Positions 15,616 through 32,949 of a stretch of 64,000 nt of DNA are shown here, in pieces; positions within the stretch are counted from its first letter, which is position 1; each line of letters begins with the position of its first letter. A model generated the notes under the pieces. The model was given only the letters and a program-made list of their open reading frames with translations, ran no database searches and had not been told where the DNA came from. The translations under genes and the position numbers were made by a program. The DNA lies in the NCBI GenBank assembly GCA_016699795.1, contig CP065011.1:1011449-1075448 (forward strand). The letters are read 5' to 3'. The stretch comes from Candidatus Moraniibacteriota bacterium (GTDB taxonomy: Bacteria; Patescibacteriota; Minisyncoccia; Moranbacterales; GCA-2747515).

Positions 15616-16929
15616 ATGCGATACCAAAAAATAGGAATTTTTTCAGCTTTATGCATCCTCGTAATAATTACGTATTATCGTTGGTTTTCTTTTTCATGGT
15701 TTGGTCTTGGGGATTGGAATATATATTTTTCTGAAAATTTACGAGAGTTTTCACTACTTTCTTTATGGAATACAAGTTTAGGTTTTGGAGTTTTGGATGT
15801 GATCGTTTGGAAAATTCCTTATAGTCTCCTTATCTCCTTATTTGGATTTCTTGGTTTTGATTCAAATATTTCGGATAAATTTCTCATTCTGATTCCTTTG
15901 GCATTCTTTTCTTTATTTGCACCTTTTATCCTCTTGAAGAAAATTGTTCGATCAAATATTTCCGCGTTTATAGGAGCATTTATTTTTGCATATTCCAGTT
16001 ATTTTCTTGCTATCCATACGCATGGTCACCAACATCTTTCTATGGCAAGTGTATGGGGCGTATTCGCTCTTTATTTTTGTATACGTTTGGTAGAGGAGAG
16101 GCGGATAGAGTGGGCGGTGCTGGGGGGGATGATACTTGCGATTTCCGGATATTATGATTTTCGATTTGCCTATATTTTCTTTTTTATATGCGGTGGGTTT
16201 CTCTTGGTTTCGTGGGTGAAAGAGGTGAGAGGAGAAAATATGAAAGTAAAGAGCAGGGAGTCTTCTTCTCTCCCTTTGCTAAAAGGGAGTACCCGAGTCA
16301 TCGAGGGGGAGGGATTTGTATCTCAGATGGGGAAAATCCCCCTCAATCCCCCTTTTCCTAAGGGGGAGGAAGACGGAGGGGAAGGAGATTCGATCACAAT
16401 GACGGGGGAAAGAAAGAATGTATGGAATCTTTTTTGGATGAGTACGGTGTTTGTACTGGTATTTGCTGGACTCAATGTTTTTTGGATTTTACCTTTTGCT
16501 ACGGCAGGGGCTATGTCAGAAAATGCAGGAGTGGGACGAGATCTTTTTGGTAATGATTATTTCGAACTTCAAGAAGCACTCTTTCTCTCGCATCCTTTCT
16601 GGACAGGGTATGGAGTTGAGTGGATGTCCAATCAACCAACTCCATGGTGGCTTACTATTTTGGGAATCTTAGCTTTTGCAGGTTTCTGGGTAGGAAGAAA
16701 AAATCCATATGTAGTATTTTTCGCTCTCATTGCTCTCATCGGAATATTTTTGGGTAAACAAGTCGATCCTCCCTTTGGAAACTCGTATTACTGGCTCTAT
16801 GAGAATCTCCCGGGCTTCAATGCCTTTCGTGAAGCTTCCAAATTTTATGTACTCATTGCTCTGGGCTACTCCGTCGGCCTCGCCTCCCTCATCAACTGGC
16901 TTTTACCGAAAGAGGGAAGTGAAAAATAA
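15616..16929 (+). CDS. N-terminal (TM-domain) half of a third YfhO-like paralog, split from its C-terminal half at 30660-31670; carries an in-frame GC-rich insert
   Basis: It is multi-TM. Its end (NSYYWLYENLPGFNAFREASKFYVLIALGYSVGLASL) aligns with EYLYEKVPVLALFRTPDTKFGLPIILILSLIIGYF of paralog A and stops in the short cytoplasmic loop before the last N-domain TM. Confidence 0.6.
   Translation: MRYQKIGIFSALCILVIITYYRWFSFSWFGLGDWNIYFSENLREFSLLSLWNTSLGFGVLDVIVWKIPYSLLISLFGFLGFDSNISDKFLILIPLAFFSLFAPFILLKKIVRSNISAFIGAFIFAYSSYFLAIHTHGHQHLSMASVWGVFALYFCIRLVEERRIEWAVLGGMILAISGYYDFRFAYIFFFICGGFLLVSWVKEVRGENMKVKSRESSSLPLLKGSTRVIEGEGFVSQMGKIPLNPPFPKGEEDGGEGDSITMTGERKNVWNLFWMSTVFVLVFAGLNVFWILPFATAGAMSENAGVGRDLFGNDYFELQEALFLSHPFWTGYGVEWMSNQPTPWWLTILGILAFAGFWVGRKNPYVVFFALIALIGIFLGKQVDPPFGNSYYWLYENLPGFNAFREASKFYVLIALGYSVGLASLINWLLPKEGSEK
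16266..16385. repeat. GC-rich palindromic mini-element inserted in frame within CDS 15616-16929
   Basis: ctctccctttgctaaaagggagtacccgagtcatcgagggggagggatttgta plus ccccctt ttcctaa gggggagg. Copies of the same element occur at 16966-17020, 26170-26228 and, inverted, at 22871-22925. It encodes ..SSLPLLKGSTRVIEGEGFVSQMGKIPLNPPFPKGEEDGGEGDS. Confidence 0.7.
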
Positions 16930-17838: not shown

Positions 17839-17962
17839 GAAATTATTGGTTTTTCCGCTTCTTAATCACCTCATCTAAACATGATGGGGTTATCTATGAA
17901 ACGGTAATATCCGTTTCTCAAAAAACATTTGATCTTTAACAATTCGAAAGAGGACTTTCTCC

Positions 17963-18685: not shown

Positions 18686-18717
18686 GACGCAAAACGACCA
18701 TTTGAGAGGTGCTAATC

Positions 18718-20022
18718 GTGAAAACGAAACGATTCTTTGAAGTAGTAATTACTTCCATTTTCCTCTTTGCTTTCGCAAGCGTTTACGCTTCCGATTGCGG
18801 AGAATTCGCAACTATCTCTGTTCCAAGTTCGGGCGGAGGATATGTGAGTGGAGGCGATGGCTACATCCCACCCCAAAATCCAACTCCCACAGACCCTGTC
18901 AATCTTACCCAAGATACTGACATTCTTGGTGCTGACGGCAATGAACTCTATGCTGGACGTGACTCAATCCTTTCTGGAATGAAAGTAAAAGTCCGCGTTG
19001 CAGTGCAAGCTGAAGGAGGGGATGCAGGAAACTGGAAAACGAGAAACGATGCCGACACTATAGACATCGCTTACTCCGTAAGTTCCAATGATGGTCCTTG
19101 GACTCAGTTTGATACTGGGTACATTACCATTTCTAAACTTGATGAGGGACAAACTATCACGGAAACGAAGGAATACACTATTCCAAATGGCATCTCTTCG
19201 ATTGCATTTCGCACAGAAACCGATTATCGAGATGAAGTCGAAGAATATGATGAAGGAGATAATACCAGTCGCGTAGAACGATTTGAGATTTCAAATCTCA
19301 AACCTGACTACAGCATCACTGATGTTTTCTTCTCTGATCCCAGTACAGGAGCCATATACCGAAATGGTGCAATACTCTTAGAAGATAGAGAGTGGTATCC
19401 CTATTGTGAGATAATGAGCACAGGAGAAATCAATGCTCCTATCAACGTAGAAGTTTCTCACCGTATGGATGGAACAGAAAGAGATACTGATACGCTAGGA
19501 ATAGATGATATTTCTTTGGGACAAACATATCGTGAAGTCGTCTGGAGCAAATGGAAACTGGGAAATACAGGAACACGTACCTATACGTGCTGTGTAGATT
19601 CCAAAGGTTGGCTTCCAGAACTCAATGAGAGCAATAATTGCAAGAGTGCACTCTTTACGATAGTTCCATGGAAACCTAGTATCACCATCACTGATCTCTG
19701 GGTAGACTATGATGGAAAAGTAGTTCGTAATGGTGGAACAGGGAGCAAAGGGAAACGTTATCATCCTAATGTTACCTTCACCAATACGGGAAACAAAACA
19801 ATGTCATGTGGTGCTGAAGCGAAGTACTACATCAATTCTAACTCCTATCGTGATCGTGATACTGTTGGTATTCTGGGAGTAGGAGGTATCGGGCACGAGA
19901 GAGTTGATAACGACAATATCAAACTTGGAGATGGAGGATGGAGATCCTATCGTGTTACTCTCCAATCTAGCTGTGGAGAGTTTCCTACAGTGGAAAGAAC
20001 GATGAGTTTCTATCTTCGATGA
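18718..20022 (+). CDS. secreted CARDB-like repeat protein, copy 2
   Basis: GTG start at 18718 after a GAGAGG RBS. Signal peptide KTKRFFEVVITSIFLFAFASVYA|SD. Motifs EYDEGDNTSRVERFEI and LPELNESNNC (E.NE.NN of CARDB). Near-identical to 29035-30339 and to the 3' 1.15 kb of 1318-3237. Confidence 0.6.
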   Translation: MKTKRFFEVVITSIFLFAFASVYASDCGEFATISVPSSGGGYVSGGDGYIPPQNPTPTDPVNLTQDTDILGADGNELYAGRDSILSGMKVKVRVAVQAEGGDAGNWKTRNDADTIDIAYSVSSNDGPWTQFDTGYITISKLDEGQTITETKEYTIPNGISSIAFRTETDYRDEVEEYDEGDNTSRVERFEISNLKPDYSITDVFFSDPSTGAIYRNGAILLEDREWYPYCEIMSTGEINAPINVEVSHRMDGTERDTDTLGIDDISLGQTYREVVWSKWKLGNTGTRTYTCCVDSKGWLPELNESNNCKSALFTIVPWKPSITITDLWVDYDGKVVRNGGTGSKGKRYHPNVTFTNTGNKTMSCGAEAKYYINSNSYRDRDTVGILGVGGIGHERVDNDNIKLGDGGWRSYRVTLQSSCGEFPTVERTMSFYLR

Positions 20023-20111: not shown

Positions 20112-20688
20112 TGTTTTTTTTCGCATCATTACTCATCGAACCGGCTTTTACCTCCCTCCCATCATCCGAAAGAGGGAAGGAAATAAAAAATGCTTTATAG
20201 CGGTATTTTTCACAAACACTTGACGTAGAAAGGTTATATATATCCATAAAGCATGTATATGCTTTATGGACTAAAGGTTATAAATTATATAACATCTAGT
20301 GCATGATATTAAAAAAGCTTTATAGAAGCATTTCTTATAAACATATGAAAAATGCTAATATAATAGCATATTTCATGCAGGAGATGTCTTTTAGGAGGAA
20401 ATTTAGCAAAGAGATCGTGCTCTCCTAAAATTTGGATTACATTCCAAAAATTTACTTTTACACTTATTATAGCTTATATAAAGCGTTATATTTATAAAAA
20501 AATTTCAGATAATCTCAAAAAGAAAATATTATTTTTATGACCTTGGTATTCACAATGCAATTCTTATTGATTTTTTTTGAAAATTCTCGATGATATACTA
20601 CAAAGCTTTCATTTGGGAACTCTTAGAAAACGCAAGCAACCTCGGAACTGATACCTATATGAAATGGACAGAGGATAGCGATGCTTAA

Positions 20689-21609
20689 CTAAGTAGTTCC
20701 TAGCTCCCGAAGTATACACACTTCGGGAGTTTTTAATTTTTCAAGAATCTCTTTTGCAGGATAGGCGCAGTTTAATTGTTTCGTGTTGGATATTTCTTTG
20801 ATAAAAGCAATACAACTATCAGGCAATAATAATAGAGTCTTGTCCATATCACTCAGGATGCTTAATGCCTTATTGCGAACGTCCGGTGCTCCGTATTGTA
20901 GCAAAGATACGAGAGTTTTTGTAAGTAAAATTTTCATTTCTTGGGACATGCCTGTGATACAAGGAATGAGCTGTCGTAGTAAAATATTCGTACAATCTCT
21001 ATAAAGTTTTTTTCTAAGAAGATATAAAATATTTTCTAATAGAACAGGATCTTTATAGATCCATTGTAGCGCTATTCCAGCATCAATAGATCCGTTCTCC
21101 ACAAGATTGATAAGATCGCTAGTTTTATCAGTACACAATTTTTGCACATCCTGTTCTATTGATCGTAGTATAGGATCTTTTGAGAAAAAAATAGTATCGT
21201 CCCGTTCTAATCCAAGATTACCTCCATTGGCATATAGACTATCTGTGCGTCTTTGATGTGTATTTATTATAGCAATTACTTCTCTAAACCATTTTGGAGT
21301 TTGTAGGTGAGATTTTCTGGATAGGTCTGGATTATTACTCTTTTTGGAGTACAAATCAATCGTCAAAACAGTTTCTAATGTATTGTTATGTTGATATAGA
21401 GGATTCATTATTTCTGCATTATATCCTCGAACGTTGTAGTATTCCCATATTTCTTTCTCAGCACGGTTATATTCTGTAGTAGAATATTTTGATCCGATAA
21501 TAAGACTACTCAGATCCATTGCAAAAGTTATAGGACAAGGATATTTATTTTTTTGATGATGCCATACTTCAATATCTAATAGCACATATTCAAGCTTAAT
21601 ATTTTGCAT
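20689..21609 (-). CDS. hypothetical protein (306 aa) in an AT-rich part of the island
   Basis: Long ORF of uncertain function. The N-terminal LLDIEVWHH is loosely like a DEDD exonuclease motif I, and the C-terminal helical repeats look HEAT-like. Both are weak impressions only. Confidence 0.4.
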   Translation of the reverse strand: MQNIKLEYVLLDIEVWHHQKNKYPCPITFAMDLSSLIIGSKYSTTEYNRAEKEIWEYYNVRGYNAEIMNPLYQHNNTLETVLTIDLYSKKSNNPDLSRKSHLQTPKWFREVIAIINTHQRRTDSLYANGGNLGLERDDTIFFSKDPILRSIEQDVQKLCTDKTSDLINLVENGSIDAGIALQWIYKDPVLLENILYLLRKKLYRDCTNILLRQLIPCITGMSQEMKILLTKTLVSLLQYGAPDVRNKALSILSDMDKTLLLLPDSCIAFIKEISNTKQLNCAYPAKEILEKLKTPEVCILRELGTT

Positions 21610-22281: not shown

Positions 22282-22870
22282 AGTTACATTATACTAAAGA
22301 AGTAACTTTTTGATAAGAAAGACCGTCTTCAATGCCTTTCGTGAAGCTTCCAAATTCTAACTCTGGGGGCTACTCCGTCGGCCTCACCTCCCTCATCAAC
22401 TGGCTTTTACCGAAAGAGGGGAGAAAATAAAGCCATGGTGACGGAGAATAAAATAAAACTTAAATATAATTTGACTTATGTTTAAGTTTGACTTAATGCA
22501 TACTATAAAATAAGTAATTGAAAAAATATTCATACAATGCAAATTTAGATATATCTATTTATACATACAATGCTCAAAAAGTTATAAAAAGACACCTCGA
22601 GTAACTTTTGTTTTACTCTCAGATGGACCCTCTCCCGCTACGGCGGGAACGGAGGAAAAGGAAAGAATAAAAGAGAGGAAGAAGGGAATAGCGTTAAGAA
22701 TAGTGTATTATATTGACCGAAATAGTATGTATTTACGTCAATATGCTAACCAAAACATAAAGAGAAAATGTAAACAAAATCCACGAAATAATATGATTTC
22801 GTGGATAGACAATCCTTGAAATTGACATATTTCGTGGATTCAGTCTTATGAATGGTATGAAATCAAGAAA

Positions 22871-22925: not shown

Positions 22926-23205
22926 TTGGAATTCAAAGAGAGAGGAGGGAGATTTGTGTATCATCAGGGAAATAAAACGCTCCTCTCAAAAAAGATTTAG
23001 CAAGCTATAACAAAAGAGTATTCTTAAATTGTATTCGTTTCATTAGATTATTATTTTTCATAAACAAATGAAACGATACAATAGTCTATTTGAAAGTTTT
23101 CGAGTGTTTTTATATGTACTTTCCGTCTGAATTTTTCTTGACAAAACACTTTGTGAATATTAACATTACAAATGTTGATATTCTGTATTTTATAACATTA
23201 GGAGT

Positions 23206-24453
23206 ATGACTTTTAAAAGAGATCTTTTGGAAGAGGTAGTGGCAGATCAGGCGCTTTCATTTGCATCACGTAATCGTGGGATAGCACGGTTGGTGAATTT
23301 TGACAATCACAAAAAATCTAAAATGATTACCGTTATATCTGGTGTTCGCCGAAGTGGAAAGTCTACACTCCTTTCGCAATTTTTCGATCTCTTGGGAGGT
23401 GGACATTATTTAAATTTCGATGACGAGCGCTTATCCGAATTTGTTTTGGAGGATTTTCGAACACTTCTCTCAATTTTTGATGGGAAAAAAGAATCAGATA
23501 CTTTCTTTTTTGATGAAATTCAAAATGTTTCTGGGTGGGAACGATTTGTACGCCGTCTTCATGATGAGGGAAAAAAAGTATTTGTAACAGGATCGAATGC
23601 CACGCTTTTGAGTGGTGAGTTAGGAACACATTTAACTGGTCGGTATAAAAAAATAGAGTTATATCCATTTTCTTTTTCTGAATATATTTGTTTTAAAGAA
23701 ATAAATATCACGGATAAAACATCGAAAAACTGTGCGAAAATTGTTAGAGGATTTGATGAATATGCAGAGATGGGTGGTTTTCCGGGATTTTTACTCGAGA
23801 ACGACAGAGAAATTTTACAGAGAATTTATGAGGATATTCTCTATCGTGATCTTTTGGTACGATTTCAAATACGCGAAGTAGAGGCATTTCGTAAGTTAGC
23901 GTCATTTCTTTTTGCTAATGTAGGAAAAAACATTGGATATTCTTCTCTAAAAAATATTTTGGGTTTTGCAAGTGCTACATCGGTAAAGAATTACGTTTCT
24001 TTTTTGGAAGAGAGCTTTTTGCTTTTTGAAATGAGAAAATATGATGCGTCTCTCAAAAAACAATATGTCTCAGAGAAGAAAATATATGCTGTGGACAACG
24101 GACTTCGTAATGCCATTTCTTTTTCTGCTTCCGAGGATCGCGGTAGGATGTTGGAAAATGCGGTGTATATGGAACTGCGCCGACGTGGGAAAGACGTGTT
24201 TTTTTTCAAAGAAAAGCGAGAATGTGATTTTGTTGTTCGCAAGGGAATACGAATTGCTGAGGCGATTCAGGTCTGCGAGAATATTTCTGATCTAGAAACA
24301 AAAGATCGAGAGGTATCGGGACTTGTTGAAGCTATGAATGTATTGCATCTTTCTTCGGGAACGATTATCACTCGCTATGAAGAAGAAACAATTGAGATTG
24401 AGGGAAAAAAAATATACATTGTTCCAGCATGGAAGTGGTTTTTGGAGATATAA
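23206..24453 (+). CDS. AAA+ ATPase of the AAA_14/DUF4143 family
   Basis: Walker A ITVISGVRRSGKSTLL; Walker B FFFDEIQNV; C-terminal ECDFVV typical of DUF4143. A 12-bp imperfect palindrome (GAATATTAACATtacaaATGTTGATATTC) lies just upstream. Confidence 0.8.
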   Translation: MTFKRDLLEEVVADQALSFASRNRGIARLVNFDNHKKSKMITVISGVRRSGKSTLLSQFFDLLGGGHYLNFDDERLSEFVLEDFRTLLSIFDGKKESDTFFFDEIQNVSGWERFVRRLHDEGKKVFVTGSNATLLSGELGTHLTGRYKKIELYPFSFSEYICFKEINITDKTSKNCAKIVRGFDEYAEMGGFPGFLLENDREILQRIYEDILYRDLLVRFQIREVEAFRKLASFLFANVGKNIGYSSLKNILGFASATSVKNYVSFLEESFLLFEMRKYDASLKKQYVSEKKIYAVDNGLRNAISFSASEDRGRMLENAVYMELRRRGKDVFFFKEKRECDFVVRKGIRIAEAIQVCENISDLETKDREVSGLVEAMNVLHLSSGTIITRYEEETIEIEGKKIYIVPAWKWFLEI

Positions 24454-24699
24454 TGTATTGCAAAAACGTTTACATTTTTACTCTCGTGGGAATACTTCTG
24501 GGCAAACAAGTGTCAGAACCTTTCTCCACACTTTACTCCTGGCTCTATGAAAACCTCCCATCATCCGAAAGAGGGAAGGAAATAAAAAAATGCTTTATAG
24601 CGGTATTTTTCACAAACACTTGACGTAGAAAGGTTATATATATTAAAGTATATATATGTTTTATGAACTAAAGGTTATAAATTATATAACATCTAGTGT

Positions 24700-25281
24700 A
24701 TGATATTAAAAAAAAGCTTTATAGATTCTTTGTATCTTTCGCCTCAATCCGTCTTTTCTAGTAAAGAAATAGCTATTCTTACAAAAGAAGCCGATCCTCT
24801 TTCTCTCAAGTCAAAACTTGCCTATTATGTGCGTAGAGGAAAACTCGTTCGTTTGCGAAAAGGTTTTTATGCAAAACCAGAAAAATACGAAAAAAAAGAA
24901 TTTGCCGTTCGTCTTTATACACCATCATATATCAGTTTTGAAACAGTTCTTGCGCAAGAAGGGATTATTTTTCAATATTACGCAACCATATTTGTTGCTA
25001 GTTATGTGTCTCGGGAGATACAGCTTTCCGATGCTACTTTTCGATATAGAAAAGTAAAGGATGCTATTCTTTTGAATAGAAAAGGTATCGTAGATAAAGA
25101 TGGGTTTTTTGAGGCAAGTAAAGAAAGAGCTTTTCTAGACATGCTTTATAGTAATCCAAAATATTATTTTGATAATTTGCGATCGATCGATTGGGACGCG
25201 TGTTTTGATCTTGTTTCTTTGTATCAAAAAAAATCTCTCGAAAAAACACTTAAAGAATATTATAACTTGTATGCTAAATAG
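24700..25281 (+). CDS. abiEi: AbiEi-like antitoxin/transcriptional regulator (type IV TA, abortive infection)
   Basis: About 190 aa. wHTH-like N-terminus with the KLAYYVRRGKLVRLRKGFYA (RGvY) motif typical of AbiEi_4. Directly upstream of, and overlapping, the AbiEii gene. Confidence 0.55.
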   Translation: MILKKSFIDSLYLSPQSVFSSKEIAILTKEADPLSLKSKLAYYVRRGKLVRLRKGFYAKPEKYEKKEFAVRLYTPSYISFETVLAQEGIIFQYYATIFVASYVSREIQLSDATFRYRKVKDAILLNRKGIVDKDGFFEASKERAFLDMLYSNPKYYFDNLRSIDWDACFDLVSLYQKKSLEKTLKEYYNLYAK

Positions 25282-25978
25282 AGAAAAACACGAGCTTGTA
25301 ATGACGCAAATACTCAAAGATGTGTATGCAGATACTTTTATAGGACCACTTCTGGGATTTAAAGGTGGCACCGCGGCATATTTATTTTATGGATTAGAAA
25401 GATTTTCTGTCGACTTGGATTTTGATCTTTTGGAGGTTTCGGAAGAGAAAAGAACTATCGTATTTGATCGCATTTCTCAGATTCTTCTTCAATACGGAAC
25501 GATACGAGATTCACAACAAAAAGAAAATACTATTTTTTTACTTCTTTCTTATGGAGCAGGAGAATATGGCATAAAAGTTGAAGTAAATACCAGAAAGGTC
25601 GGATCTTTGTATGAAATGAAACAGTATTTTGGCATTCCAATGCTTGTTATGAAAAAAGAATCGATGTTTGCAAGTAAATTAATAGCGCTCATAGAAAGAA
25701 AAAAATTTGCGGCTCGAGATATGTATGATGTATATTATTTTCTAAAAAATAATTGGGATATTGATATTAATGTTTTGAATAAGTATGGAAAGAAAAACAT
25801 TGTTTCTTTTTTGGATGAATGTATTCATTTTGTAGAAAATACCCCGGATAACTCTTTACTGGGAGGATTGGGAGAACTTGTCGAGGAAACGAAAAAAGAC
25901 TTTATTCGAAATAAAATGAAGATGGAAATAGTTTTCTTTCTTTCCATTCGGAAAGAACAATACAAAAAGAGATACTAA
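25271..25978 (+). CDS. abiEii: AbiEii/AbiGii-family nucleotidyltransferase toxin
   Basis: FKGGTAAYLFYGLERFSVDLDFDL matches the DUF1814/AbiEii signature (KGGTAL..yg..R.S.DlD). The start is either ATG 25271 (overlapping the AbiEi stop) or 25301. Confidence 0.7.
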   Translation: MLNREKHELVMTQILKDVYADTFIGPLLGFKGGTAAYLFYGLERFSVDLDFDLLEVSEEKRTIVFDRISQILLQYGTIRDSQQKENTIFLLLSYGAGEYGIKVEVNTRKVGSLYEMKQYFGIPMLVMKKESMFASKLIALIERKKFAARDMYDVYYFLKNNWDIDINVLNKYGKKNIVSFLDECIHFVENTPDNSLLGGLGELVEETKKDFIRNKMKMEIVFFLSIRKEQYKKRY

Positions 25979-26326: not shown

Positions 26327-27022
26327 ATGAAACAGCTTTCTACTCGAACCATATCAATTATTTCTCTTATAGCCATTGCCATTTTGGCATTAGGAATTTT
26401 TGCAATGCAAAGAGTTTACAACACACCTCTTCCTGTTGTGGAGGATGAAGTTGAACAAAAAGAGAATCTGAAAACAAATGATGATAATAACTCTAAAAAA
26501 GAGCAACAAAATATAGATGAAAATATCATGGCTATGGTAGAAACATTTGATGTTAGTGATTGGCAATTATATTCAAATAATGAACTTGGATTTAGTGTGA
26601 AACTTCCACCAACTTTTGATCTTAATGATCCCAGGATTTATGAAGATGAAAAATTCTTTGTAAAAAGTGTTTGTTTTCCAGATAATCAAGATATGCAGCT
26701 ATATGCCAATGAAGGAGCAGAATCAAGGGGTCCAAGATTATTATGTTTTAAGAAAGGAGCATTGGGAAATGTGGATGACCTTATGACTAAATTTAAGGAT
26801 AGTAGTAATCAATTTGTAAAATATAATATTCTTATTTCTCATGATATTTCTGCAAAACTTTATTTTGGCTTTGGGAGTGGAATAATCTTTGAGTCTAATA
26901 AATATAGATTGACAATCGAAGACTCTTACACCTTCAAAAGCGCTACCATTTTTAACAATGTTTCAAATTTGTATTACCTTGGCATGATCAAAACATTTGT
27001 TTTATTTGATGAGAAAAAGTAA
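26327..27022 (+). CDS. MKQLSTR-family signal-anchored protein, copy 3a
   Basis: N-terminal MKQLSTRTISIISLIAIAILALGIFAMQRVYNTPLPVVEDEVEQKENLKTNDD; unique C-terminal domain; conserved promoter/leader upstream. Confidence 0.75.
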   Translation: MKQLSTRTISIISLIAIAILALGIFAMQRVYNTPLPVVEDEVEQKENLKTNDDNNSKKEQQNIDENIMAMVETFDVSDWQLYSNNELGFSVKLPPTFDLNDPRIYEDEKFFVKSVCFPDNQDMQLYANEGAESRGPRLLCFKKGALGNVDDLMTKFKDSSNQFVKYNILISHDISAKLYFGFGSGIIFESNKYRLTIEDSYTFKSATIFNNVSNLYYLGMIKTFVLFDEKK

Positions 27023-27127
27023 TAATTCATTTTCGGAATAATGCTCCAACCAAAGAGAAATCCTTCCCTTTGGTTGCCGGCAATGTTTCGGTATTCTGAC
27101 CTTTGACAAATAGAGGAGTCTATTCGA

Positions 27128-27316
27128 ATGAATATTCGATTGTTTCTCGTACTATGCTTTTTTACCACATCTTTCTCAGCATTCTCTGCTGAATCGATTC
27201 GTACGGTAACGGGATTCTATTATCCCATTGGAATGACAAAAGATACGATTGTAAAACAGGAAATACTTGATACGATAGCTAAGAATATTATTTTAAAGAA
27301 TAATTTTCCAGAGTAA
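27128..27316 (+). CDS. 62-aa ORF with its own signal peptide whose C-terminus duplicates the last 30 aa of ORF 27474-28193; a small secreted protein or a cassette remnant
   Basis: ..IGMTKDTIVKQEILDTIAKNIILKNNFPE* matches ..IGMTKDTVVKQEILDTIAKNIILKNNFPE* of the next gene. The same NNFPE*-plus-leader junction recurs at about 390-404. Confidence 0.35.
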   Translation: MNIRLFLVLCFFTTSFSAFSAESIRTVTGFYYPIGMTKDTIVKQEILDTIAKNIILKNNFPE

Positions 27317-27473
27317 ATCTTTCTTTGATTATCTCATTTGGATGTAATGGTTAGTTGATAGGCTACCGACGATGACCCATGGACTCAGTTTGACACTGGA
27401 TATATGACTATCGAAAAACTTGACATAAAGCCATATTTTAGGTATATTTTTTGTACATTATTTTAAATACATT

Positions 27474-28193
27474 ATGAAACAGCTTTCCACTCGAACTATA
27501 GCCATTATTTCCCTTATCGCCATTGCCATTTTGGCATTAGGAGTCTTTGCAATACAAAGAGCTTACAATACCCCACTTCCTGTTGTGGAGAATAAAGTTG
27601 AACAAAAAGAGAATCCGAAAACAAATGATAAAATCTTCATTGCCGATGTTGATATGAATATTGAAAATTGGCAAACGAAAGAAACGAAATTCTTTACGAT
27701 TAAATTTCCAAAAGAGTGGTATTGGTTGGAATCTGATTTTGAAAAGATAGGATATCATTCACAAGCAATCACCAATAATCCAAATTTTGATATAAACAAG
27801 TATCCTGACATTGGAATGTTTACTGGATATGATTATCCAATGATACTTAAAGAAAATAGTGAGGTTATTATAACGTTTGGAGGTTTTCCCACATCCAATT
27901 CTGGCACACCAAAGGATAGCTCTGATTATATTAAGAAATCCGTTTTAGATAAAAATTCTTCCGCTCAGTGCAAGGAAATTCAGATTACTAATAACAATGA
28001 TAGAAATGTAACTCTTTTTATTACCTGTTCTTTTATGGATATATATGGGTACAGCATAAAGAAGTATAGCGCTATTAATAACGAAATTTCTATTACAATA
28101 ACCATTGGAATGACAAAAGATACGGTTGTAAAACAGGAAATACTTGATACGATAGCTAAGAATATTATTTTAAAGAATAATTTTCCAGAGTAG
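27474..28193 (+). CDS. MKQLSTR-family signal-anchored protein, copy 3b
   Basis: N-terminal MKQLSTRTIAIISLIAIAILALGVFAIQRAYNTPLPVVENKVEQKENPKTNDKIF; shares a central block with ORF 17119. Confidence 0.75.
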   Translation: MKQLSTRTIAIISLIAIAILALGVFAIQRAYNTPLPVVENKVEQKENPKTNDKIFIADVDMNIENWQTKETKFFTIKFPKEWYWLESDFEKIGYHSQAITNNPNFDINKYPDIGMFTGYDYPMILKENSEVIITFGGFPTSNSGTPKDSSDYIKKSVLDKNSSAQCKEIQITNNNDRNVTLFITCSFMDIYGYSIKKYSAINNEISITITIGMTKDTVVKQEILDTIAKNIILKNNFPE

Positions 28194-28303
28194 ACCTTTT
28201 CTCGATTACCTTATTTGAATATGATTGGGTAATCTATGAAGCGGTAATATCCGTTTCTCAAAAAGCAATTGTTTTTTGACAATTTGAAAGAGGAGTTTTT
28301 TCC

Positions 28304-29002
28304 ATGAACATGCTAATGAAGACTGTGCTATACACACTTCTTTTCTTATCTAATATGGGAGTATATGCCGGAACAGATGAATGCTATGGATATAAATCTA
28401 CAACGAGTCATTTTGCGTGTGGTGAATATGGCAATTGTGTATGGTGGGCTGCATATATGCGTCCGGATATTGCTAGGGTTATAACGGGAAGTGGTTGGAA
28501 TGGTGGAGATTGGTACGCTAAACTTAAGGGAACGATTCCAGTTGGTTCCGTTCCGGAAGTTGGTGCAATTGTGGAATTTGAAGGCCACGTTGCGTTTGTT
28601 AAGGATATACTGGACGAAGGAGCATTCGCTGTATCAGAAATGGATTATTATGGGCAGTTTGGTTCGGGCGTACAATATGCCACATACACTCCCAATGGTG
28701 ATGGGACCTATCAACGAAATAATGAATCAAAGAAATGGACCCTCAACGGTTTCATTTATGCTGAAGATCCGGCAGTTATCCCTGGCAACACTTTTACGGT
28801 ACGTCGGGTAGGTAACTATGCTTGGCATCCTGCAGACAGTTCGTGTATCAATGCAAAAAATTGGTACGGACTCAATAGCGATCGAAAAATCGTACGTACG
28901 TACGACGATAGCCAAGTATGCCAATGGATCTACGAAACACTCTACCCACAAGAGGTAAGCTATAATGCACTCTTCGGAAATGCTAATGCGTGCTATCAAT
29001 AA
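28304..29002 (+). CDS. secreted CHAP-domain peptidoglycan hydrolase, copy 3
   Basis: Catalytic Cys in GNCVWWAAYMRP and His in EGHVAFVKDI. Signal peptide. AGAGGAG RBS. Confidence 0.8.
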   Translation: MNMLMKTVLYTLLFLSNMGVYAGTDECYGYKSTTSHFACGEYGNCVWWAAYMRPDIARVITGSGWNGGDWYAKLKGTIPVGSVPEVGAIVEFEGHVAFVKDILDEGAFAVSEMDYYGQFGSGVQYATYTPNGDGTYQRNNESKKWTLNGFIYAEDPAVIPGNTFTVRRVGNYAWHPADSSCINAKNWYGLNSDRKIVRTYDDSQVCQWIYETLYPQEVSYNALFGNANACYQ

Positions 29003-29034
29003 GACGCAAAACGACCATTTGAGAGGTGCTAATC

Positions 29035-30339
29035 GTGAAAACGAAACGATTCTTTGAAGTAGTAATTACTTCCATTTTCCTCTTTGCTTTCGCAAGCGTT
29101 TACGCTTCCGATTGCGGAGAATTCGCAACTATCTCTGTTCCAAGTTCGGGCGGAGGATATGTGAGTGGAGGCGATGGCTACATCCCACCCCAAAATCCAA
29201 CTCCCACAGACCCTGTCAATCTTACCCAAGATACTGACATTCTTGGTGCTGACGGCAATGAACTCTATGCTGGACGTGACTCAATCCTTTCTGGAATGAA
29301 AGTAAAAGTCCGCGTTGCAGTGCAAGCTGAAGGAGGGGATGCAGGAAACTGGAAAACGAGAAACGATGCCGACACTATAGACATCGCTTACTCCGTAAGT
29401 TCCAATGATGGTCCTTGGACTCAGTTTGATACTGGGTACATTACCATTTCTAAACTTGATGAAGGAGTTACTATTACAGAAACGAAAGAATACACTATTC
29501 CAAATGGCATCTCTTCGATTGCATTTCGCACAGAAACCGATTATCGAGATGAAGTCGAAGAATATGATGAAGGAGATAATACCAGTCGCGTAGAACGATT
29601 TGAGATTTCAAATCTCAAACCTGACTACAGCATCACTGATGTTTTCTTCTCTGATCCCAGTACAGGAGCCATATACCGAAATGGTGCAATACTCTTAGAA
29701 GATAGAGAGTGGTATCCCTATTGTGAGATAATGAGCACAGGAGAAATCAATGCTCCTATCAACGTAGAAGTTTCTCACCGTATGGATGGAACAGAAAGAG
29801 ATACTGATACGCTAGGAATAGATGATATTTCTTTGGGACAAACATATCGTGAAGTCGTCTGGAGCAAATGGAAACTGGGAAATACAGGAACACGTACCTA
29901 TACGTGCTGTGTAGATTCCAAAGGTTGGCTTCCAGAACTCAATGAGAGCAATAATTGCAAGAGTGCACTCTTTACGATAGTTCCATGGAAACCTAGTATC
30001 ACCATCACTGATCTCTGGGTAGACTATGATGGAAAAGTAGTTCGTAATGGTGGAACAGGGAGCAAAGGGAAACGTTATCATCCTAATGTTACCTTCACCA
30101 ATACGGGAAACAAAACAATGTCGTGTGGTGCTGAAGCAAAGTACTACATTAATTCTAACTCCTATAGAGATAGAGACGGGATCGATCCTCTTTCCGTGAA
30201 TCAATCCGGACATGAGAGAGTCGAGAACGACAATATCAAACTTGGAGATGGAGGATGGAGATCATATCGTGTTACTATCCAATCTAGCTGTGGAGAGTTT
30301 CCTACAGTGGAAAGGACGATGAGTTTTTATCTTCGATGA
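29035..30339 (+). CDS. secreted CARDB-like repeat protein, copy 3
   Basis: Identical to copy 2 except for small patches (EGVTITE versus EGQTITE; a C-terminal 35-aa patch). Confidence 0.6.
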   Translation: MKTKRFFEVVITSIFLFAFASVYASDCGEFATISVPSSGGGYVSGGDGYIPPQNPTPTDPVNLTQDTDILGADGNELYAGRDSILSGMKVKVRVAVQAEGGDAGNWKTRNDADTIDIAYSVSSNDGPWTQFDTGYITISKLDEGVTITETKEYTIPNGISSIAFRTETDYRDEVEEYDEGDNTSRVERFEISNLKPDYSITDVFFSDPSTGAIYRNGAILLEDREWYPYCEIMSTGEINAPINVEVSHRMDGTERDTDTLGIDDISLGQTYREVVWSKWKLGNTGTRTYTCCVDSKGWLPELNESNNCKSALFTIVPWKPSITITDLWVDYDGKVVRNGGTGSKGKRYHPNVTFTNTGNKTMSCGAEAKYYINSNSYRDRDGIDPLSVNQSGHERVENDNIKLGDGGWRSYRVTIQSSCGEFPTVERTMSFYLR

Positions 30340-30659: not shown

Positions 30660-31670
30660 ATGAAAAATTTTCTGAAAAAGCAAATGAGAAAAAAATCGTT
30701 TCGCTTCATCGTGATAGGTTTCATTGCGGGACTGGCTTTATGGAATGCAAATTCCCTTGTTACAGGGAAGATTGGGACTATGTTTGTGCCACGAGAAATT
30801 TCTAAAGACTATTATGTTTATAGAGAATTCATAAATTCTCAAGATGAATATTTTCGAGTTCTTGGTATTCCCGTTCCTTCTAAATGGATGGTTTACACGA
30901 ATAAACATCCAAAAATGAGTTTGGTAGATCTTACTCGTGAAGCCTGGCAAGAATTCGCTATTCCTCACATCGATGGACATCCAGAACGAAATGAACGTTG
31001 GTTATTAAGCCCCCTTGAGCAAGATTTTTCTGAGAGACTTTTGGATGTTTCCGCCATTCGTTATATTGCCATTCCAAGAGATGATGCGAAAAATGCAGAT
31101 GATTTTTTTGGTGCTTATGGAGAACGAAAAGTATTTCTTGCACATTTAGACGCTATGCCTTTTTTGCATCGTATAGATGCTAAAACAGGGGAGATTATTA
31201 TCTATGAGAACCCAGATGCACGACCACATATATATCTTACCAATGAAAAAGAGAGTATTGAAAAAGAGATCCCTTATACTCCCACTGATTTTCAATTTAT
31301 TTCCCCATCTCAGTACAATATAAAGAATATTACATTGGCAGAAAATTTAGAAACATATCTCAACTTTAGCGAAAGCTATCATCCAGATTGGAAGATTCGC
31401 GTAGGGGATTTCTCTTGGTGGGATTCTCTTTGGGATAAACAGTACTTCCTTTCCGATGAATACCATATAAAGAATGATGCGGGTCTTAATTCTTTTATTC
31501 TACCAGAAGAAGTTTTGAAAAGTGAAAAATCTCTTACATTATTTTTTCGTCCACAAGCACATCTTTATTTGGGTTTAATCTTTTCAAGTTCCTTATTTTT
31601 TATTTGTATTGGATATTTACTATGGGTAAGTTTTCGATTTTTAAAACTTCGGAAAAAACCTAAAAAATAA
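30660..31670 (+). CDS. C-terminal half (one TM + extracytoplasmic domain + C-terminal TM anchor) of the split YfhO-like paralog
   Basis: It starts with a TM helix (FRFIVIGFIAGLALW) and the ..MFVPREI.. motif aligning to RIVVIPEEY / YIVNIPSEY of paralogs A and B. The C-terminal HPDWKIRVGDFSWW..LTLFFRPQAHLYLGLIFSSSLFFICIGYLLW matches the paralog C-termini. Confidence 0.6.
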   Translation: MKNFLKKQMRKKSFRFIVIGFIAGLALWNANSLVTGKIGTMFVPREISKDYYVYREFINSQDEYFRVLGIPVPSKWMVYTNKHPKMSLVDLTREAWQEFAIPHIDGHPERNERWLLSPLEQDFSERLLDVSAIRYIAIPRDDAKNADDFFGAYGERKVFLAHLDAMPFLHRIDAKTGEIIIYENPDARPHIYLTNEKESIEKEIPYTPTDFQFISPSQYNIKNITLAENLETYLNFSESYHPDWKIRVGDFSWWDSLWDKQYFLSDEYHIKNDAGLNSFILPEEVLKSEKSLTLFFRPQAHLYLGLIFSSSLFFICIGYLLWVSFRFLKLRKKPKK

Positions 31671-31803
31671 AGTATTTAAAACAAATTTTTTATCTTCTTT
31701 ATAAAACAAAAATCATCCTTCTTTCTTTTTATTTAATGAGAATGTTTATTTCTTTTAGATGAAAAAATATACAATATTTTTATTTTTACAACAACTAATT
31801 TTC

Positions 31804-32949
31804 TTAAATTTTTTCTAAGGGACGTTTCTTTAGTGTCAAACCGGGTGTTTCTTTTTCTACCTTTTTGGCTTCTTCTAAAGATTTCTTTGTAGGGGAGGGG
31901 AGTCCTCCGGCTATTTTTCGAAGAGCTATTCCATCAATTTTTAGAACATCATTCCATTTATCTAAAGGTTCCAAAATTTCTCGAATTCTTTCTTCATCAA
32001 AAGAATATGTTTTCCGATATGTTTTTTCAATCATTTTATCTTCACCAAAAACACGAAGGAGACCTTCTTGATTCATAAAATCTTCAATAATAGTCTGCAT
32101 TTTCTTGATTCGGGAATTATGAGAAGTAATTTCTTTTTTGAGTGTAATATATTCATCAATAGCTTTTTGAGCATCCTGATGCTCTATTTTTTCTTTTTCT
32201 ACACTATGTCGCCACATAGGACAAATGTTTTGAAACCCACACCAAGAGCATAATTTTGAGGCTCTTGGTTCGAATTTCTCTTGTTCTATATTTTCGATTA
32301 CACTCAAGAATAAACGAGCGACTTCGCTAAGATCCTCAAGTGTTCTTGTCGCGGTTATTTTCTGCCTATGTTTCAGATAATAGAGACTTACTTTAAGATT
32401 TTTTAAATTATTTTTTTCTTTCGGATACATTTTCAAAAATGCCAAAAGATAGATAGATAACTGAATACTTGTATCCGCATCATGTTGTGTCGGCATCTTT
32501 CGAGCAGTTTTATAATCAATGATTTCATAACCATCAGCTGTTCTATCTATACGATCGATTATTCCAGAAATAACATGCGCATTTTCTTGGTTTTTTTCAT
32601 CAAAAATATCTATTTCAAAACGTTTTTCAAGAGCAACGATATTTATATTCGCTATATCATTATCTTCATAATAGCGTTGTATGATATCAACTCCTTGAGA
32701 GAAGGCTCCTCTATTTTCCATTTCATTTTCAAAAAGAGAGTCATCCCAATGAGAAGCATAAAAATCAAGAGCATTTTCGAGACTGGGCGAAACAAATCCT
32801 GGAGTATGGATATATTGCATAACTTGATGCAAATGCGTTCCAAAAAACTGTTCCTTCGTTCGAGGTTCTTTTATTTTTTCAATTTCTTTATATTTATATT
32901 TGAGCGGACAAGTTTCGTAATTATCAAATGATGAAAATGAAATTCTCAT
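31804..32949 (-). CDS. PD-(D/E)XK-family nuclease with a C-terminal Cas4/AddB-like Cys cluster
   Basis: N-terminal FDNYETCPLKYKYKEI; motifs D..D and IIDYKTARK (D-EXK); C-terminal CSWCGFQNICPMW (C-x2-C-x5-C). No cas genes nearby. Confidence 0.65.
   Translation of the reverse strand: MRISFSSFDNYETCPLKYKYKEIEKIKEPRTKEQFFGTHLHQVMQYIHTPGFVSPSLENALDFYASHWDDSLFENEMENRGAFSQGVDIIQRYYEDNDIANINIVALEKRFEIDIFDEKNQENAHVISGIIDRIDRTADGYEIIDYKTARKMPTQHDADTSIQLSIYLLAFLKMYPKEKNNLKNLKVSLYYLKHRQKITATRTLEDLSEVARLFLSVIENIEQEKFEPRASKLCSWCGFQNICPMWRHSVEKEKIEHQDAQKAIDEYITLKKEITSHNSRIKKMQTIIEDFMNQEGLLRVFGEDKMIEKTYRKTYSFDEERIREILEPLDKWNDVLKIDGIALRKIAGGLPSPTKKSLEEAKKVEKETPGLTLKKRPLEKI

What the first reader, a model, noticed from the sequence alone, without database searches (positions are those of the whole stretch)
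24700..25978. AbiEi/AbiEii abortive-infection (type IV TA) pair inside the island, with a remnant copy of its 5' region 4 kb upstream
ORF 25271-25978 carries the DUF1814/AbiEii nucleotidyltransferase signature (KGGTAAYLFYGLERFSVDLDFDL). The overlapping upstream ORF has the AbiEi wHTH RGvY-type motif. The roughly 140 bp upstream of abiEi (24585-24725, including its first codons MILKK..) is duplicated at 20190-20330, where the reading frame has decayed. That points to a former second copy or to the module moving.
Basis: partly seen in the sequence, partly recalled or inferred. Interest (0 to 1): 0.55.

Follow-up and report, generated by a model that had tools for sequence, protein, structure and literature searches.

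The report
AbiE toxin-antitoxin pair plus promoter scar
This is an intact but ordinary AbiE toxin-antitoxin / phage-defence gene pair in a Candidatus Moranbacteria genome, and the short duplicate 4.4 kb upstream is a recombination scar left by an earlier pair of such modules in a strain-variable island.

Summary
ORF 24700-25281 is an AbiEi antitoxin: PADLOC AbiEi E=1e-60 over its full length, and the predicted fold best matches S. agalactiae AbiEi (6Y8Q). ORF 25271-25978 is an AbiEii/DUF1814 nucleotidyltransferase toxin: Pfam 72 bits against a cut-off of 22.5, all four catalytic motifs intact, and a fold closest to JHP933 and MenT4. The genes overlap by 11 nt. Both are intact and differ from a sister strain mostly by synonymous changes.

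The duplicate is real: 20155-20326 matches 24554-24725 at 93.7% identity. It is a junction, not a decayed frame. At a shared GCTTTATAGA it switches to the promoter of a second AbiE subtype. That subtype lies intact next to this one in a related strain and has been deleted here. A second scar lies at 22988-23073.

The whole 13.7-kb island sits between the two halves of a split membrane-protein gene. More distant Moranbacteria also carry AbiE modules at that site. Copies of the N-half's 3' end mark every module boundary.

The toxin is already annotated in NCBI, and PADLOC has models for this exact subfamily. This is a new member of a known kind, of low interest. "Type IV" is the classical label; a 2026 preprint argues for type VII.

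The parts
24700..25281 (+). abiEi: antitoxin and predicted autorepressor, 193 aa. [quoted passage not shown]
   Evidence: PADLOC AbiEi PDLC02255, E=1.3e-60, residues 5-186 on model positions 2-182 of 186. Pfam AbiEi_4 scores 22.4 bits, below the gathering score of 25. AF2 model has pLDDT 92.6. Foldseek top hits are 6Y8Q AbiEi (E=5.6e-5, TM 0.56, full length) and then Rv2827c 1ZEL. Against strain L001 there are 13 synonymous and 4 non-synonymous codon changes.
25271..25978 (+). abiEii: DUF1814 nucleotidyltransferase toxin, 235 aa, overlapping abiEi by 11 nt.
   Evidence: Pfam PF08843 scores 72.4 bits against a gathering score of 22.5. PADLOC PDLC02324, E=5.5e-65, full length. Motifs G32-G33, R44-x-S46-x-D48-x-D50, K136-L-x-A-x3-R143 and R149-D-x-x-D153 are invariant or nearly so in 30-32 homologues. 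AF2 pLDDT is 95.1. The fold is nearest JHP933 (4OK0) and MenT4 (6Y56). It is 100% identical to an NCBI protein named AbiEii/AbiGii toxin family.
24620..24649 (+). Promoter-like site for the abiE operon: TTGACG, 18-nt spacer, TAAAGT.
   Evidence: Consensus scan, 9 of 12 positions. The TTGAC box is conserved in relatives L001, L030, L032 and L033. This is inferred; no transcript data are available.
24668..24696 (.). 29-bp palindrome CTAAAGGTTATA-AATTA-TATAACATCTAG just upstream of the abiEi ATG. Candidate AbiEi operator. A partial second copy, AAAGGTTATATAT, lies at 24629-24641.
   Evidence: The same arm-spacer-arm layout sits at the same place upstream of abiEi in L030, L032 and L033 (abiEii 61-68% identical). 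L033 has changed arms that still pair (GGTAAGA...TCATACC). The function is inferred by analogy with the IR1/IR2 operator of S. agalactiae abiE (PMC3985639).
24490..24585 (+). Fragment of the 3' end of membrane-protein gene 'X-N', with an internal deletion, ending at its stop codon immediately before the abiE promoter.
   Evidence: The translation is ...GILLGKQVSEPFSTLYSWLYENLPSSERGKEIK, compared with X-N ...GIFLGKQVDPPFGNSYYWLYENLP...
20155..20326 (+). Scar 1a: copy of the X-N tail, the abiE promoter, the candidate operator (20271-20299) and the first 9 codons of abiEi.
   Evidence: 93.7% identical to 24554-24725.
20317..20414 (+). Scar 1b: 5' half of the promoter of a second AbiE subtype, including its palindrome at 20345-20376. 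It is joined to scar 1a at the shared GCTTTATAGA.
   Evidence: Window 20311-20414 is 74.5% identical to L001 3614-3723 (E about 1e-13). That stretch lies upstream of the intact 201-aa AbiEi and 267-aa AbiEii pair of L001.
20426..20522 (+). Scar 1c: sequence that in relatives lies immediately 3' of an abiEii stop codon.
   Evidence: 82.7% identical to L030 3220-3315 and 78.8% identical to L039 12048-12132.
22988..23073 (+). Scar 2: 3' half of the second-subtype promoter with its start codon (ATG AAA ...), then a stop after 5 codons. It lies about 130 bp upstream of the ATPase gene.
   Evidence: 87.4% identical to L001 3716-3802, which ends in the abiEi-2 start codon at 3797.
23206..24453 (+). 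Neighbouring AAA_14/DUF4143 ATPase (PADLOC candidate defence gene PDC-S01). It is not part of the abiE operon but recurs near AbiE in relatives.
   Evidence: Pfam AAA_14 at 122 bits and DUF4143 at 84 bits. PADLOC PDC-S01, E=3.5e-116. The same family lies next to AbiE in L032, L033 and L039.
15616..16929 (+). X-N: N-terminal half (437 aa) of a split multipass membrane-protein gene. It forms the left border of the island. The core of its tail, CTCATCAACTGGCTTTTACC, is at 16888-16907.
   Evidence: Alignment with the paralogues at 11169-13346 and 13333-15609. Homologues are mostly about 700-730 aa, but the closest ones are 434-460 aa.
30660..31670 (+). X-C: C-terminal half (336 aa) of the same split gene. 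It forms the right border of the island.
   Evidence: Alignment. It is 59% identical to the 338-aa protein that follows the AbiE pair in L039.

Best explanation
The two overlapping genes are an intact AbiE module of a Candidatus Moranbacteria (Patescibacteria/CPR) genome.

Inferred from characterised homologues:
- AbiEii is a DNA-polymerase-beta-fold nucleotidyltransferase. When free, it arrests growth by adding nucleotides to tRNA 3' ends and so blocks translation.
- AbiEi has two jobs. Its winged-helix domain represses the operon by binding the palindrome between the promoter and the ATG. Its C-terminal part neutralises the toxin, probably by inducing toxin auto-phosphorylation on Ser46, which sits two residues before the catalytic Asp48.
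- Phage infection, or loss of the DNA, would free the toxin. The result would be abortive infection and/or retention of the island.

Shown directly by sequence comparison:
- The 172-bp upstream duplicate is a scar.
- An earlier tandem of this AbiE subtype and a second subtype once lay downstream of the CARDB gene. The same arrangement is intact in a sister strain.
- It lost the first operon by recombination between two GCTTTATAGA motifs, one in codons 6-9 of abiEi and one in the second promoter. It then lost the second operon too.
- The module lies in a strain-variable island between the two halves of a split membrane-protein gene. A copy of the N-half's 3' end precedes every module.
For: Identity of the pair:
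- Pfam AbiEii above its gathering score.
- Full-length PADLOC AbiEi and AbiEii hits at E=1e-60 and 5e-65.
- Confident AF2 models. Their best PDB matches are S. agalactiae AbiEi 6Y8Q and Rv2827c for the antitoxin, and JHP933 and MenT4 (Rv2826c) for the toxin.
- NTase motifs I-IV are invariant across homologues. These are the motifs whose mutation abolishes toxicity in S. agalactiae AbiEii (PMC3985639).
- The register R44-x-S46-x-D48-x-D50 equals R63-x-T65-x-D67-x-D69. T65 is the mapped phospho-acceptor in S. agalactiae (bioRxiv 10.64898/2026.01.19.700257). S46 is invariant.

Operon:
- The genes overlap by 11 nt here and by 8-29 nt in L030, L032 and L033.
- Antitoxin and toxin homologues are found on the same contigs.

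Constraint:
- Codon changes against L001 are 13 synonymous to 4 non-synonymous in abiEi, and 10 to 5 in abiEii.

Operator:
- A palindrome is conserved in position, with altered but still complementary arms in L033.

Scar:
-.
- The second subtype is a true AbiE pair (PDLC02241/PDLC02313).
- It lies beside or near the first subtype in L001 and L032.

Island:
-.
Against: No experiment exists for this subfamily. Toxicity, tRNA targeting, phosphorylation, DNA binding and phage defence are all transferred from homologues with about 13-20% identity.

Pfam AbiEi_4 (22.4 against 25 bits) and NCBIfam TAA_AbiEi (34.5 against 150 bits) do not reach their cut-offs. A profile of the antitoxin family finds no PDB sequence match.

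The -35 box and the conserved TGAACT/TAAACT box are 38 nt apart here, against 16-17 nt in relatives. The real promoter geometry is therefore uncertain.

The conserved palindrome could act as an RNA hairpin in the 5' UTR instead of a DNA operator.

The order of the rearrangements that produced the scars cannot be reconstructed uniquely. The similarity of scar 1b to the second promoter is only 74.5%.
Confidence: 0.8

Rival explanations
1. The pair works mainly as an addiction module that keeps the variable island (or the split-gene arrangement) in the genome, with little or no role against phages.
For: AbiE systems stabilise plasmids as well as giving phage resistance (PMC3985639). In L039/L040 an AbiE pair is the only cargo between X-N and X-C. 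The split with an AbiE resident persists across lineages whose X-N is only about 49% identical. That pattern is what a hard-to-lose module would produce.
Against: The module sits with other defence-type genes (PDC-S01 ATPase, DUF3800) in several relatives, which looks like a defence island. A whole earlier tandem was deleted in this genome without loss of the lineage, so addiction is not absolute. The two roles are not exclusive.
Confidence: 0.3
2. The 172-bp upstream copy is not a scar but a working regulatory element. It would be a second AbiEi-controlled promoter or a decoy operator that titrates AbiEi, or it would drive the 41-aa ORF at 20303-20428.
For: The -35 box and the 29-bp palindrome are 100% conserved in the copy. 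The small internal palindrome is actually more perfect there (CCATAAAGCATGTATATGCTTTATGG).
Against: The copy includes 9 abiEi codons with a 2-nt frame change, and is then fused to half of another promoter and to DNA normally found 3' of abiEii. That is the anatomy of deletions, not of a designed unit. The next gene downstream is on the opposite strand. The sister-strain contig L001 shows only the copy in front of its intact abiE operon, although that contig covers only part of the island.
Confidence: 0.1
3. The modules of the island, the abiE operon included, move as discrete cassettes by site-specific recombination at the repeated X-N tail. This would resemble an integron or a Xer-dependent element. 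The tail has a CTCATCAACTGGCTTTTACC core and a CCTCCCTC...GAGGGAAGG hairpin.
For: There are seven same-strand copies of the tail, one at every module boundary (7 matches against 0.36 expected). All copies end at the same point, the X-N stop codon, before diverging into four classes of downstream sequence. The order t-P1-(P2a)...R-Xf-t in the window is a circular permutation of R-Xf-t-P1-E1-P2a in L001.
Against: No integrase, transposase or Xer gene was recognised among the island ORFs tested. There is no dif-like site near the island. Left ends of the copies vary from about 55 to about 340 bp of X-N sequence and carry internal deletions. That fits homologous recombination and accretion using the flanking gene as the homology arm. 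Exact-pattern scans of public genome and metagenome collections gave only chance hits.
Confidence: 0.15
4. The pair is an inactive relic on its way to decay, like the neighbouring scars.
For: The same island contains two scars of deleted AbiE modules.
Against: Both ORFs are full length relative to their families. All catalytic and family-invariant residues are present. Changes against the sister strain are mostly synonymous.
Confidence: 0.05

Closest known systems
AbiE of Streptococcus agalactiae V/R 2603 (AbiEi, PDB 6Y8Q; AbiEii) and the lactococcal AbiE of pNP40
   Same: - Bicistronic, overlapping antitoxin-then-toxin operon.
- Antitoxin of about 195 aa with an N-terminal wHTH and a C-terminal domain. 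It is the top structural match, aligned over the full length.
- DUF1814 toxin with motifs I-IV and a Ser/Thr two residues before the first catalytic Asp (PMC3985639; bioRxiv 10.64898/2026.01.19.700257).
- Inverted repeats in the promoter.
   Different: - Only about 13% sequence identity for the antitoxin.
- The toxin is shorter: 235 aa, against about 33 kDa for the tagged S. agalactiae toxin in the preprint.
- The candidate operator is one 29-bp palindrome next to the ATG plus a half-site-like repeat, not two 23-bp arms.
- The host is a CPR bacterium.
- No function has been tested.
MenA4/MenT4 (Rv2827c/Rv2826c) and MenA3/MenT3 of Mycobacterium tuberculosis
   Same: Both partners of the window pair hit the two partners of the MenAT4 pair by fold: 1ZEL for the antitoxin and 6Y56 for the toxin. 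MenT toxins are DUF1814 NTases that modify tRNA acceptor ends (PMC7450476, PMC10435456). They are controlled by phosphorylation (PMC7205606, PMC11375011).
   Different: The MenT/MenA proteins are longer (about 290 aa) and TM scores are only 0.47-0.56. The tRNA targets and nucleotide preference of the CPR toxin are unknown.
JHP933 of Helicobacter pylori (PDB 4O8S/4OK0)
   Same: It is the closest solved structure and the only PDB sequence-level hit for the toxin: E=3.6e-7, Foldseek E=1.6e-10 and TM 0.63. It has a similar short length (about 230 aa) and the same KG-TA-YL-YGL-RFS-DLDFD and KL-A...ARD--D motifs.
   Different: JHP933 is encoded in an H. pylori plasticity zone. Whether it has an AbiEi partner was not checked here. 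Identity to the window toxin is about 20%.
PADLOC AbiE subfamily models PDLC02255 (AbiEi) and PDLC02324 (AbiEii)
   Same: Both match over their full length at E=1e-60 and 5e-65. This exact subfamily is therefore already catalogued as AbiE.
   Different: These are bioinformatic family models only. No member is known to me to have been tested.

Membership tests
AbiEii / DUF1814 nucleotidyltransferase toxins (PF08843, COG2253) | Match to the family profile above the curated threshold | tested here: met
   PF08843 scores 72.4 bits against a gathering score of 22.5, E=6.9e-20. PADLOC PDLC02324, E=5.5e-65, positions 3-226 of 231.
AbiEii / DUF1814 nucleotidyltransferase toxins (PF08843, COG2253) | Pol-beta NTase motif I (hG[GS]) and motif II (R...DhD), family motif III (KLxAaxxR) and motif IV (+DxxD), as defined in PMC3985639 | tested here: met
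   G32-G33; R44, D48, D50; K136-L-I-A-L-I-E-R143; R149-D-M-Y-D153. They are invariant or at least 90% conserved in 30-32 homologues.
AbiEii / DUF1814 nucleotidyltransferase toxins (PF08843, COG2253) | DUF1814 fold | tested here: met
   AF2 pLDDT 95.1. Top PDB matches are JHP933 (E=1.6e-10, TM 0.63) and MenT4 (E=3.4e-7, TM 0.56).
AbiEii / DUF1814 nucleotidyltransferase toxins (PF08843, COG2253) | Growth inhibition when expressed alone; nucleotidyl transfer to tRNA | not testable with these tools
   Needs expression and in-vitro transfer assays.
AbiEi / COG5340 antitoxins | Match to family profiles | tested here: inconclusive
   PADLOC PDLC02255, E=1.3e-60, full length. However, Pfam AbiEi_4 scores 22.4 bits against a gathering score of 25, and NCBIfam TAA_AbiEi scores 34.5 bits against a cut-off of 150. 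NCBI names the protein 'hypothetical'.
AbiEi / COG5340 antitoxins | Two-domain architecture: N-terminal winged HTH plus C-terminal antitoxin domain, AbiEi fold | tested here: met
   AF2 pLDDT 92.6 with H-E-H-H-E-E at residues 7-58 followed by an alpha/beta domain. The best PDB matches align over the full length: 6Y8Q AbiEi (E=5.6e-5, TM 0.56) and Rv2827c.
AbiE operon (antitoxin-toxin module) | Bicistronic arrangement with the antitoxin first, genes overlapping or abutting, and conserved pairing | tested here: met
   11-nt overlap here. The same order, with 8-29-nt overlaps, occurs in L001, L030, L032 and L033.
AbiE operon (antitoxin-toxin module) | Inverted repeats in the promoter bound by AbiEi; negative autoregulation | tested here: inconclusive
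   A 29-bp palindrome at 24668-24696 is conserved in position in relatives, with covarying arms in L033. Binding and repression cannot be tested here.
Type VII (phosphorylation-neutralised) as opposed to type IV classification | Ser/Thr phospho-acceptor two residues before the first catalytic Asp of motif II (T65 in S. agalactiae AbiEii, S78 in MenT3) | tested here: met
   S46 in R44-F-S46-V-D48-L-D50 is invariant in 32 homologues. Equivalence is by motif register only. Phosphorylation itself is not testable here.
Abortive-infection (anti-phage) systems | Protection of a population against phage through death or stasis of infected cells | not testable with these tools
   No cultured host or phage is available. 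The only support is membership of the family and a defence-island-like neighbourhood.
Integron-type or Xer/dif-type cassette arrays (considered for the island) | Adjacent site-specific recombinase gene; attC-like or dif-like sites at cassette ends | tested here: not met
   No recombinase family was found among the island ORFs scanned. There is no dif-consensus match near the island. The boundary repeats are fragments of the flanking gene's 3' end.

The most novel reading that the evidence does not exclude
The gap between the two halves of the split membrane-protein gene may be a dedicated, lineage-wide cargo site in Moranbacteria. Defence and surface-protein modules would be exchanged there as units. 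They would recombine at the conserved tail of the N-half (core CTCATCAACTGGCTTTTACC plus hairpin) by a mechanism with no recognisable recombinase. An AbiE module would be the original, self-stabilising occupant that created the split.
Probability: 0.15. Interest if true: 0.6.

Novelty: new member of a known kind. Interest (0 to 1): 0.25.

Why it matters
For the finding itself, little changes. It adds one more AbiE module, from a subfamily that PADLOC already models and whose toxin NCBI already names. The practical gain is a corrected annotation of the antitoxin, which the record calls 'hypothetical protein IPN70_04815'.

It also shows that tiny-genome CPR bacteria keep, duplicate and lose AbiE modules at one fixed chromosomal site. 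The conserved Ser46 makes this short toxin a compact test case for the proposed auto-phosphorylation control of DUF1814 toxins.

The context is of more interest than the pair. A strain-variable island is held between the halves of a split envelope-protein gene across lineages with about 50% protein divergence. This could help map defence hotspots in uncultured Patescibacteria.

Tried and rejected
1. Exact look-up of the window's AbiEi, and of the 100%-identical AbiEii P0001, in the contig index found nothing on record. The source genome could therefore only be named from the protein search.

2. I scanned genome contigs and metagenome contigs for the 19-20-nt tail core. There were 1 and 26 hits, none with any other similarity to the window. 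These are chance matches, and no empty site was found this way.

3. PDB sequence searches for AbiEi with the single sequence and with a 31-sequence profile gave no meaningful hit. Only fold comparison worked.

4. tRNA/tmRNA and Rfam scans of the window found nothing. The island is therefore not a tRNA-targeted element and no known RNA is involved.

5. The dif/Xer idea for the repeated boundaries found no consensus dif near the island.

6. Reading the boundary repeats as integron attC sites was rejected. They translate as the C-terminus of X-N and vary in length on the left side.

7. An IMG/VR scan with the AbiEi profile returned one locus, in a giant-virus MAG bin. That gives no evidence that this subfamily is phage-borne.

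8. My first reading was that the island had recently split an intact gene. I revised this because the nearest X-N homologues are also 434-530 aa and end at the same residue. The split is old.
Full report
OBSERVATION. The ORF list and the sequence show two overlapping + strand ORFs: 24700-25281 (193 aa) and 25271-25978 (235 aa from the ATG). They share 11 nt, ATGCTAAATAG. The quoted toxin signature and the RLRKGFY motif of the upstream product are present.

The duplicate is real. Window 20155-20326 aligns with 24554-24725. Of 175 aligned columns, 164 are identical (93.7%), with five substitutions and three small indels.

WHAT THE GENES ARE. The second product reaches Pfam AbiEii (PF08843) at 72.4 bits against a gathering score of 22.5. 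It also matches the PADLOC AbiEii model PDLC02324 end to end at E=5.5e-65.

Its motifs are those defined for AbiEii in PMC3985639. They are G32-G33 (motif I), R44/D48/D50 (motif II), K136-LxAxxx-R143 (motif III) and R149-DxxD153 (motif IV). They are invariant or nearly so in 30-32 homologues, including a divergent second subtype.

A confident AF2 model (pLDDT 95.1) is closest to JHP933 of H. pylori (E=1.6e-10, TM 0.63) and to MenT4 of M. tuberculosis (E=3.4e-7). JHP933 is also the only sequence-level PDB hit.

The first product is weak in Pfam (AbiEi_4, 22.4 against 25 bits) and in NCBIfam (34.5 against 150 bits). It nevertheless matches the PADLOC AbiEi model PDLC02255 over its full length at E=1.3e-60. 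Sequence searches of the PDB fail. The AF2 model (pLDDT 92.6) has S. agalactiae AbiEi (6Y8Q) as its best match over the whole length, followed by Rv2827c (1ZEL). Rv2827c is the partner of MenT4, so both proteins point to the same characterised pairs.

The toxin is 100% identical to an NCBI protein named 'nucleotidyl transferase AbiEii/AbiGii toxin family protein' from a Candidatus Moraniibacteriota MAG with a 1.19-Mb contig. The antitoxin in that record is 'hypothetical protein IPN70_04815'. AbiE in Patescibacteria has been noted before (bioRxiv 10.1101/2024.03.08.584096).

IS IT ALIVE? A sister-strain contig (L001/L002, ENA ERZ28616648) carries the same operon at 97% DNA identity. Codon differences are 13 synonymous to 4 non-synonymous in abiEi, and 10 to 5 in abiEii. 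Gene order and overlap are kept in relatives whose toxins are 61-68% identical (L030, L032, L033). I conclude that the pair is intact and under constraint.

HOW IT MOST LIKELY WORKS (inferred from homologues). AbiEii is a growth-arresting NTase (PMC3985639). MenT homologues and, in a 2026 preprint, S. agalactiae AbiEii add pyrimidines to tRNAs (PMC7450476, PMC10435456, bioRxiv 10.64898/2026.01.19.700257).

That preprint shows that AbiEi induces auto-phosphorylation of AbiEii on T65, in the register R63-x-T65-x-D67-x-D69, and proposes a type VII classification. The window toxin has R44-F-S46-V-D48-L-D50, and S46 is invariant. The same control is therefore plausible, and the label 'type IV' may be outdated.

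For regulation, a 29-bp palindrome lies just before the ATG: CTAAAGGTTATA-AATTA-TATAACATCTAG at 24668-24696. The same arm-spacer-arm layout sits at the same place in L030, L032 and L033, and L033 has changed but still complementary arms. By analogy with the IR1/IR2 operator of S. agalactiae abiE, I read it as the AbiEi operator. An RNA hairpin in the 5' UTR is not excluded.

A TTGACG-18-TAAAGT promoter-like site lies at 24620-24649. The spacing to the box conserved in relatives is 38 nt here against 16-17 nt elsewhere, so the promoter geometry is uncertain.

THE REMNANT. The upstream copy keeps the tail of the flanking gene, the -35 box, the palindrome (20271-20299) and nine abiEi codons. Its A-run is 2 nt shorter. 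Similarity to abiEi then ends at GCTTTATAGA.

From that motif onward (20317-20414), the sequence matches the promoter of a different AbiE pair. In L001 that pair lies immediately downstream of the first one (201-aa AbiEi and 267-aa AbiEii; PADLOC PDLC02241/PDLC02313). That promoter starts with the same ATGCTTTATAGA motif.

The stretch 20426-20522 resembles DNA that lies just 3' of an abiEii stop codon in L030 and L039.

A second scar at 22988-23073 is the 3' half of the second promoter with its ATG AAA start (87% identical to L001 3716-3802). It now lies upstream of the ATPase gene.

The simplest reading is that a tandem of the two AbiE subtypes once lay downstream of the CARDB gene and lost both operons. 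The first was lost by recombination between the two GCTTTATAGA motifs. The exact order of events cannot be recovered. A tandem duplication followed by deletions, and integration of a circular intermediate, give the same topology.

CONTEXT. ORF 15616-16929 (X-N) aligns with the N-terminal part of two upstream paralogues of 725 and 758 aa. ORF 30660-31670 (X-C) aligns with their C-terminal part. These genes lie at the end of a glycosyltransferase / GDP-sugar cluster. The 13.7 kb between the two halves is the 'island'.

The tail of X-N translates as ...LINWLLP(PSHHP)KEGxK*. It recurs seven times on the + strand, at 16863, 20139, 21900, 22367, 24538, 26069 and 30447 (7 matches against 0.36 expected). 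One copy lies in front of each module:
- 239-aa/CHAP/CARDB genes
- the AbiE scars plus a 306-aa gene
- an 87-aa gene
- the PDC-S01 ATPase
- abiE
- a second 231/239-aa/CHAP/CARDB set

All copies end at the X-N stop codon and then diverge. Their left ends vary in length.

The split is old. The nearest X-N homologues are 434-530 aa and stop at the same residue.
- In L039/L040 the gap holds only a second-subtype AbiE pair. It is followed by an X-C that is 59% identical and by an AAA_14 ATPase.
- In L038 the gap holds a 182-aa gene, a DUF3800 gene and an AbiE pair.
- In the sister strain, L036 and L001 are apparently adjoining scaffolds (their end genes share the residues CTNI). The gap there holds an ATP-grasp-like gene, the 306-aa gene and both AbiE pairs.
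- L037 resembles the window's left junction.

The site is therefore a strain-variable hotspot whose modules carry scars of the flanking gene. This fits accretion by homologous recombination better than a dedicated cassette recombinase. No recombinase family was recognised among the island ORFs tested. No dif-like site lies near the island. Pattern scans of public collections gave only chance hits.

VERDICT. The pair is a new, untested member of a well-known and already catalogued family, so interest is low. The variable island in a split envelope-protein gene is the more unusual feature, but it lies outside the finding and is only partly explored.

Noticed in passing
window 15616-16929 and 30660-31670; loci L036, L037, L038, L039, L040: A multipass membrane-protein gene is split into an N-half and a C-half. 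It is a paralogue of the genes at 11169-13346 and 13333-15609 and lies at the end of a glycosyltransferase cluster. About 13.7 kb of variable cargo sits between the halves. Relatives with about 50% divergence are split at the same residue and also carry AbiE pairs in the gap.
   Followed up: partly
window 16863, 20139, 21900, 22367, 24538, 26069, 30447 (+ strand): Seven copies of the 3' tail of the N-half mark every module boundary in the island. The tail has the core CTCATCAACTGGCTTTTACC, with or without TCCCTCCCATCAT, then CCGAAAGAGGGAAG. All copies end at the stop codon and then diverge into four classes of downstream sequence.
   Followed up: partly
window 565-3237, 17119-20022, 26327-30339: There are three near-identical copies (98-100% over 300-nt stretches) of a set encoding a signal-anchored protein of about 239 aa, a CHAP-domain protein and a CARDB-domain protein. 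In the first copy CHAP and CARDB are fused into one 655-aa ORF. These are recent segmental duplications of probable cell-surface or lytic proteins.
   Followed up: partly
window 23206-24453: An AAA_14 + DUF4143 ATPase (PADLOC candidate defence gene PDC-S01, E=3.5e-116) lies directly upstream of abiE. The same family sits within a few kb of AbiE pairs in L032, L033 and L039.
   Followed up: partly
window 20345-20376; L001 3649-3678; L030 3367-3432; L032 6990-7042; L038 3532-3565: A palindrome of the type GAAATATGCTA-N-TAGCATATTTC recurs in related genomes in front of different genes: the second AbiE subtype, an ATPase and a 182-aa gene. It also occurs after abiEii. It could be a shared operator or a junction element.
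   Followed up: no
window 20689-21609 (- strand): A 306-aa ORF has no Pfam, PADLOC or NCBIfam hit. It is 98% conserved at the DNA level in the sister strain (8 nucleotide differences, 4 synonymous and 4 non-synonymous codons). It is always next to a fragment of the X-N gene. Function unknown.
   Followed up: no
window 22447-22510; L030 1773-1847: A stretch of about 75 bp (…AACTTAAATATAATTTGACTTATGTTTAAGTTTGACTTAAT…) is shared at 91% with the region upstream of abiE in a relative whose AbiE proteins are only 67-68% identical. This suggests a mobile or widely reused intergenic element.
   Followed up: no
window about 31000-32000: The sign of the GC skew and the gene orientation both switch here: + strand genes up to 31.7 kb and - strand genes after. 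This is just past the island, and a PD-(D/E)XK / Cas4-like nuclease gene at 31804-32949 (-) is the first gene beyond it. It could be a replication-related switch point. No dif-like site was found.
   Followed up: partly
window 59878-60399: A perfect tandem duplication of a 261-bp unit (99% identity) lies inside the 661-aa ORF at 59363-61348 (- strand).
   Followed up: no
window 24707-24715: The run of eight A at codons 3-6 of abiEi is six A in the scar copy. A homopolymer tract sits at the very start of the antitoxin gene. Whether it ever slips is unknown.
   Followed up: no
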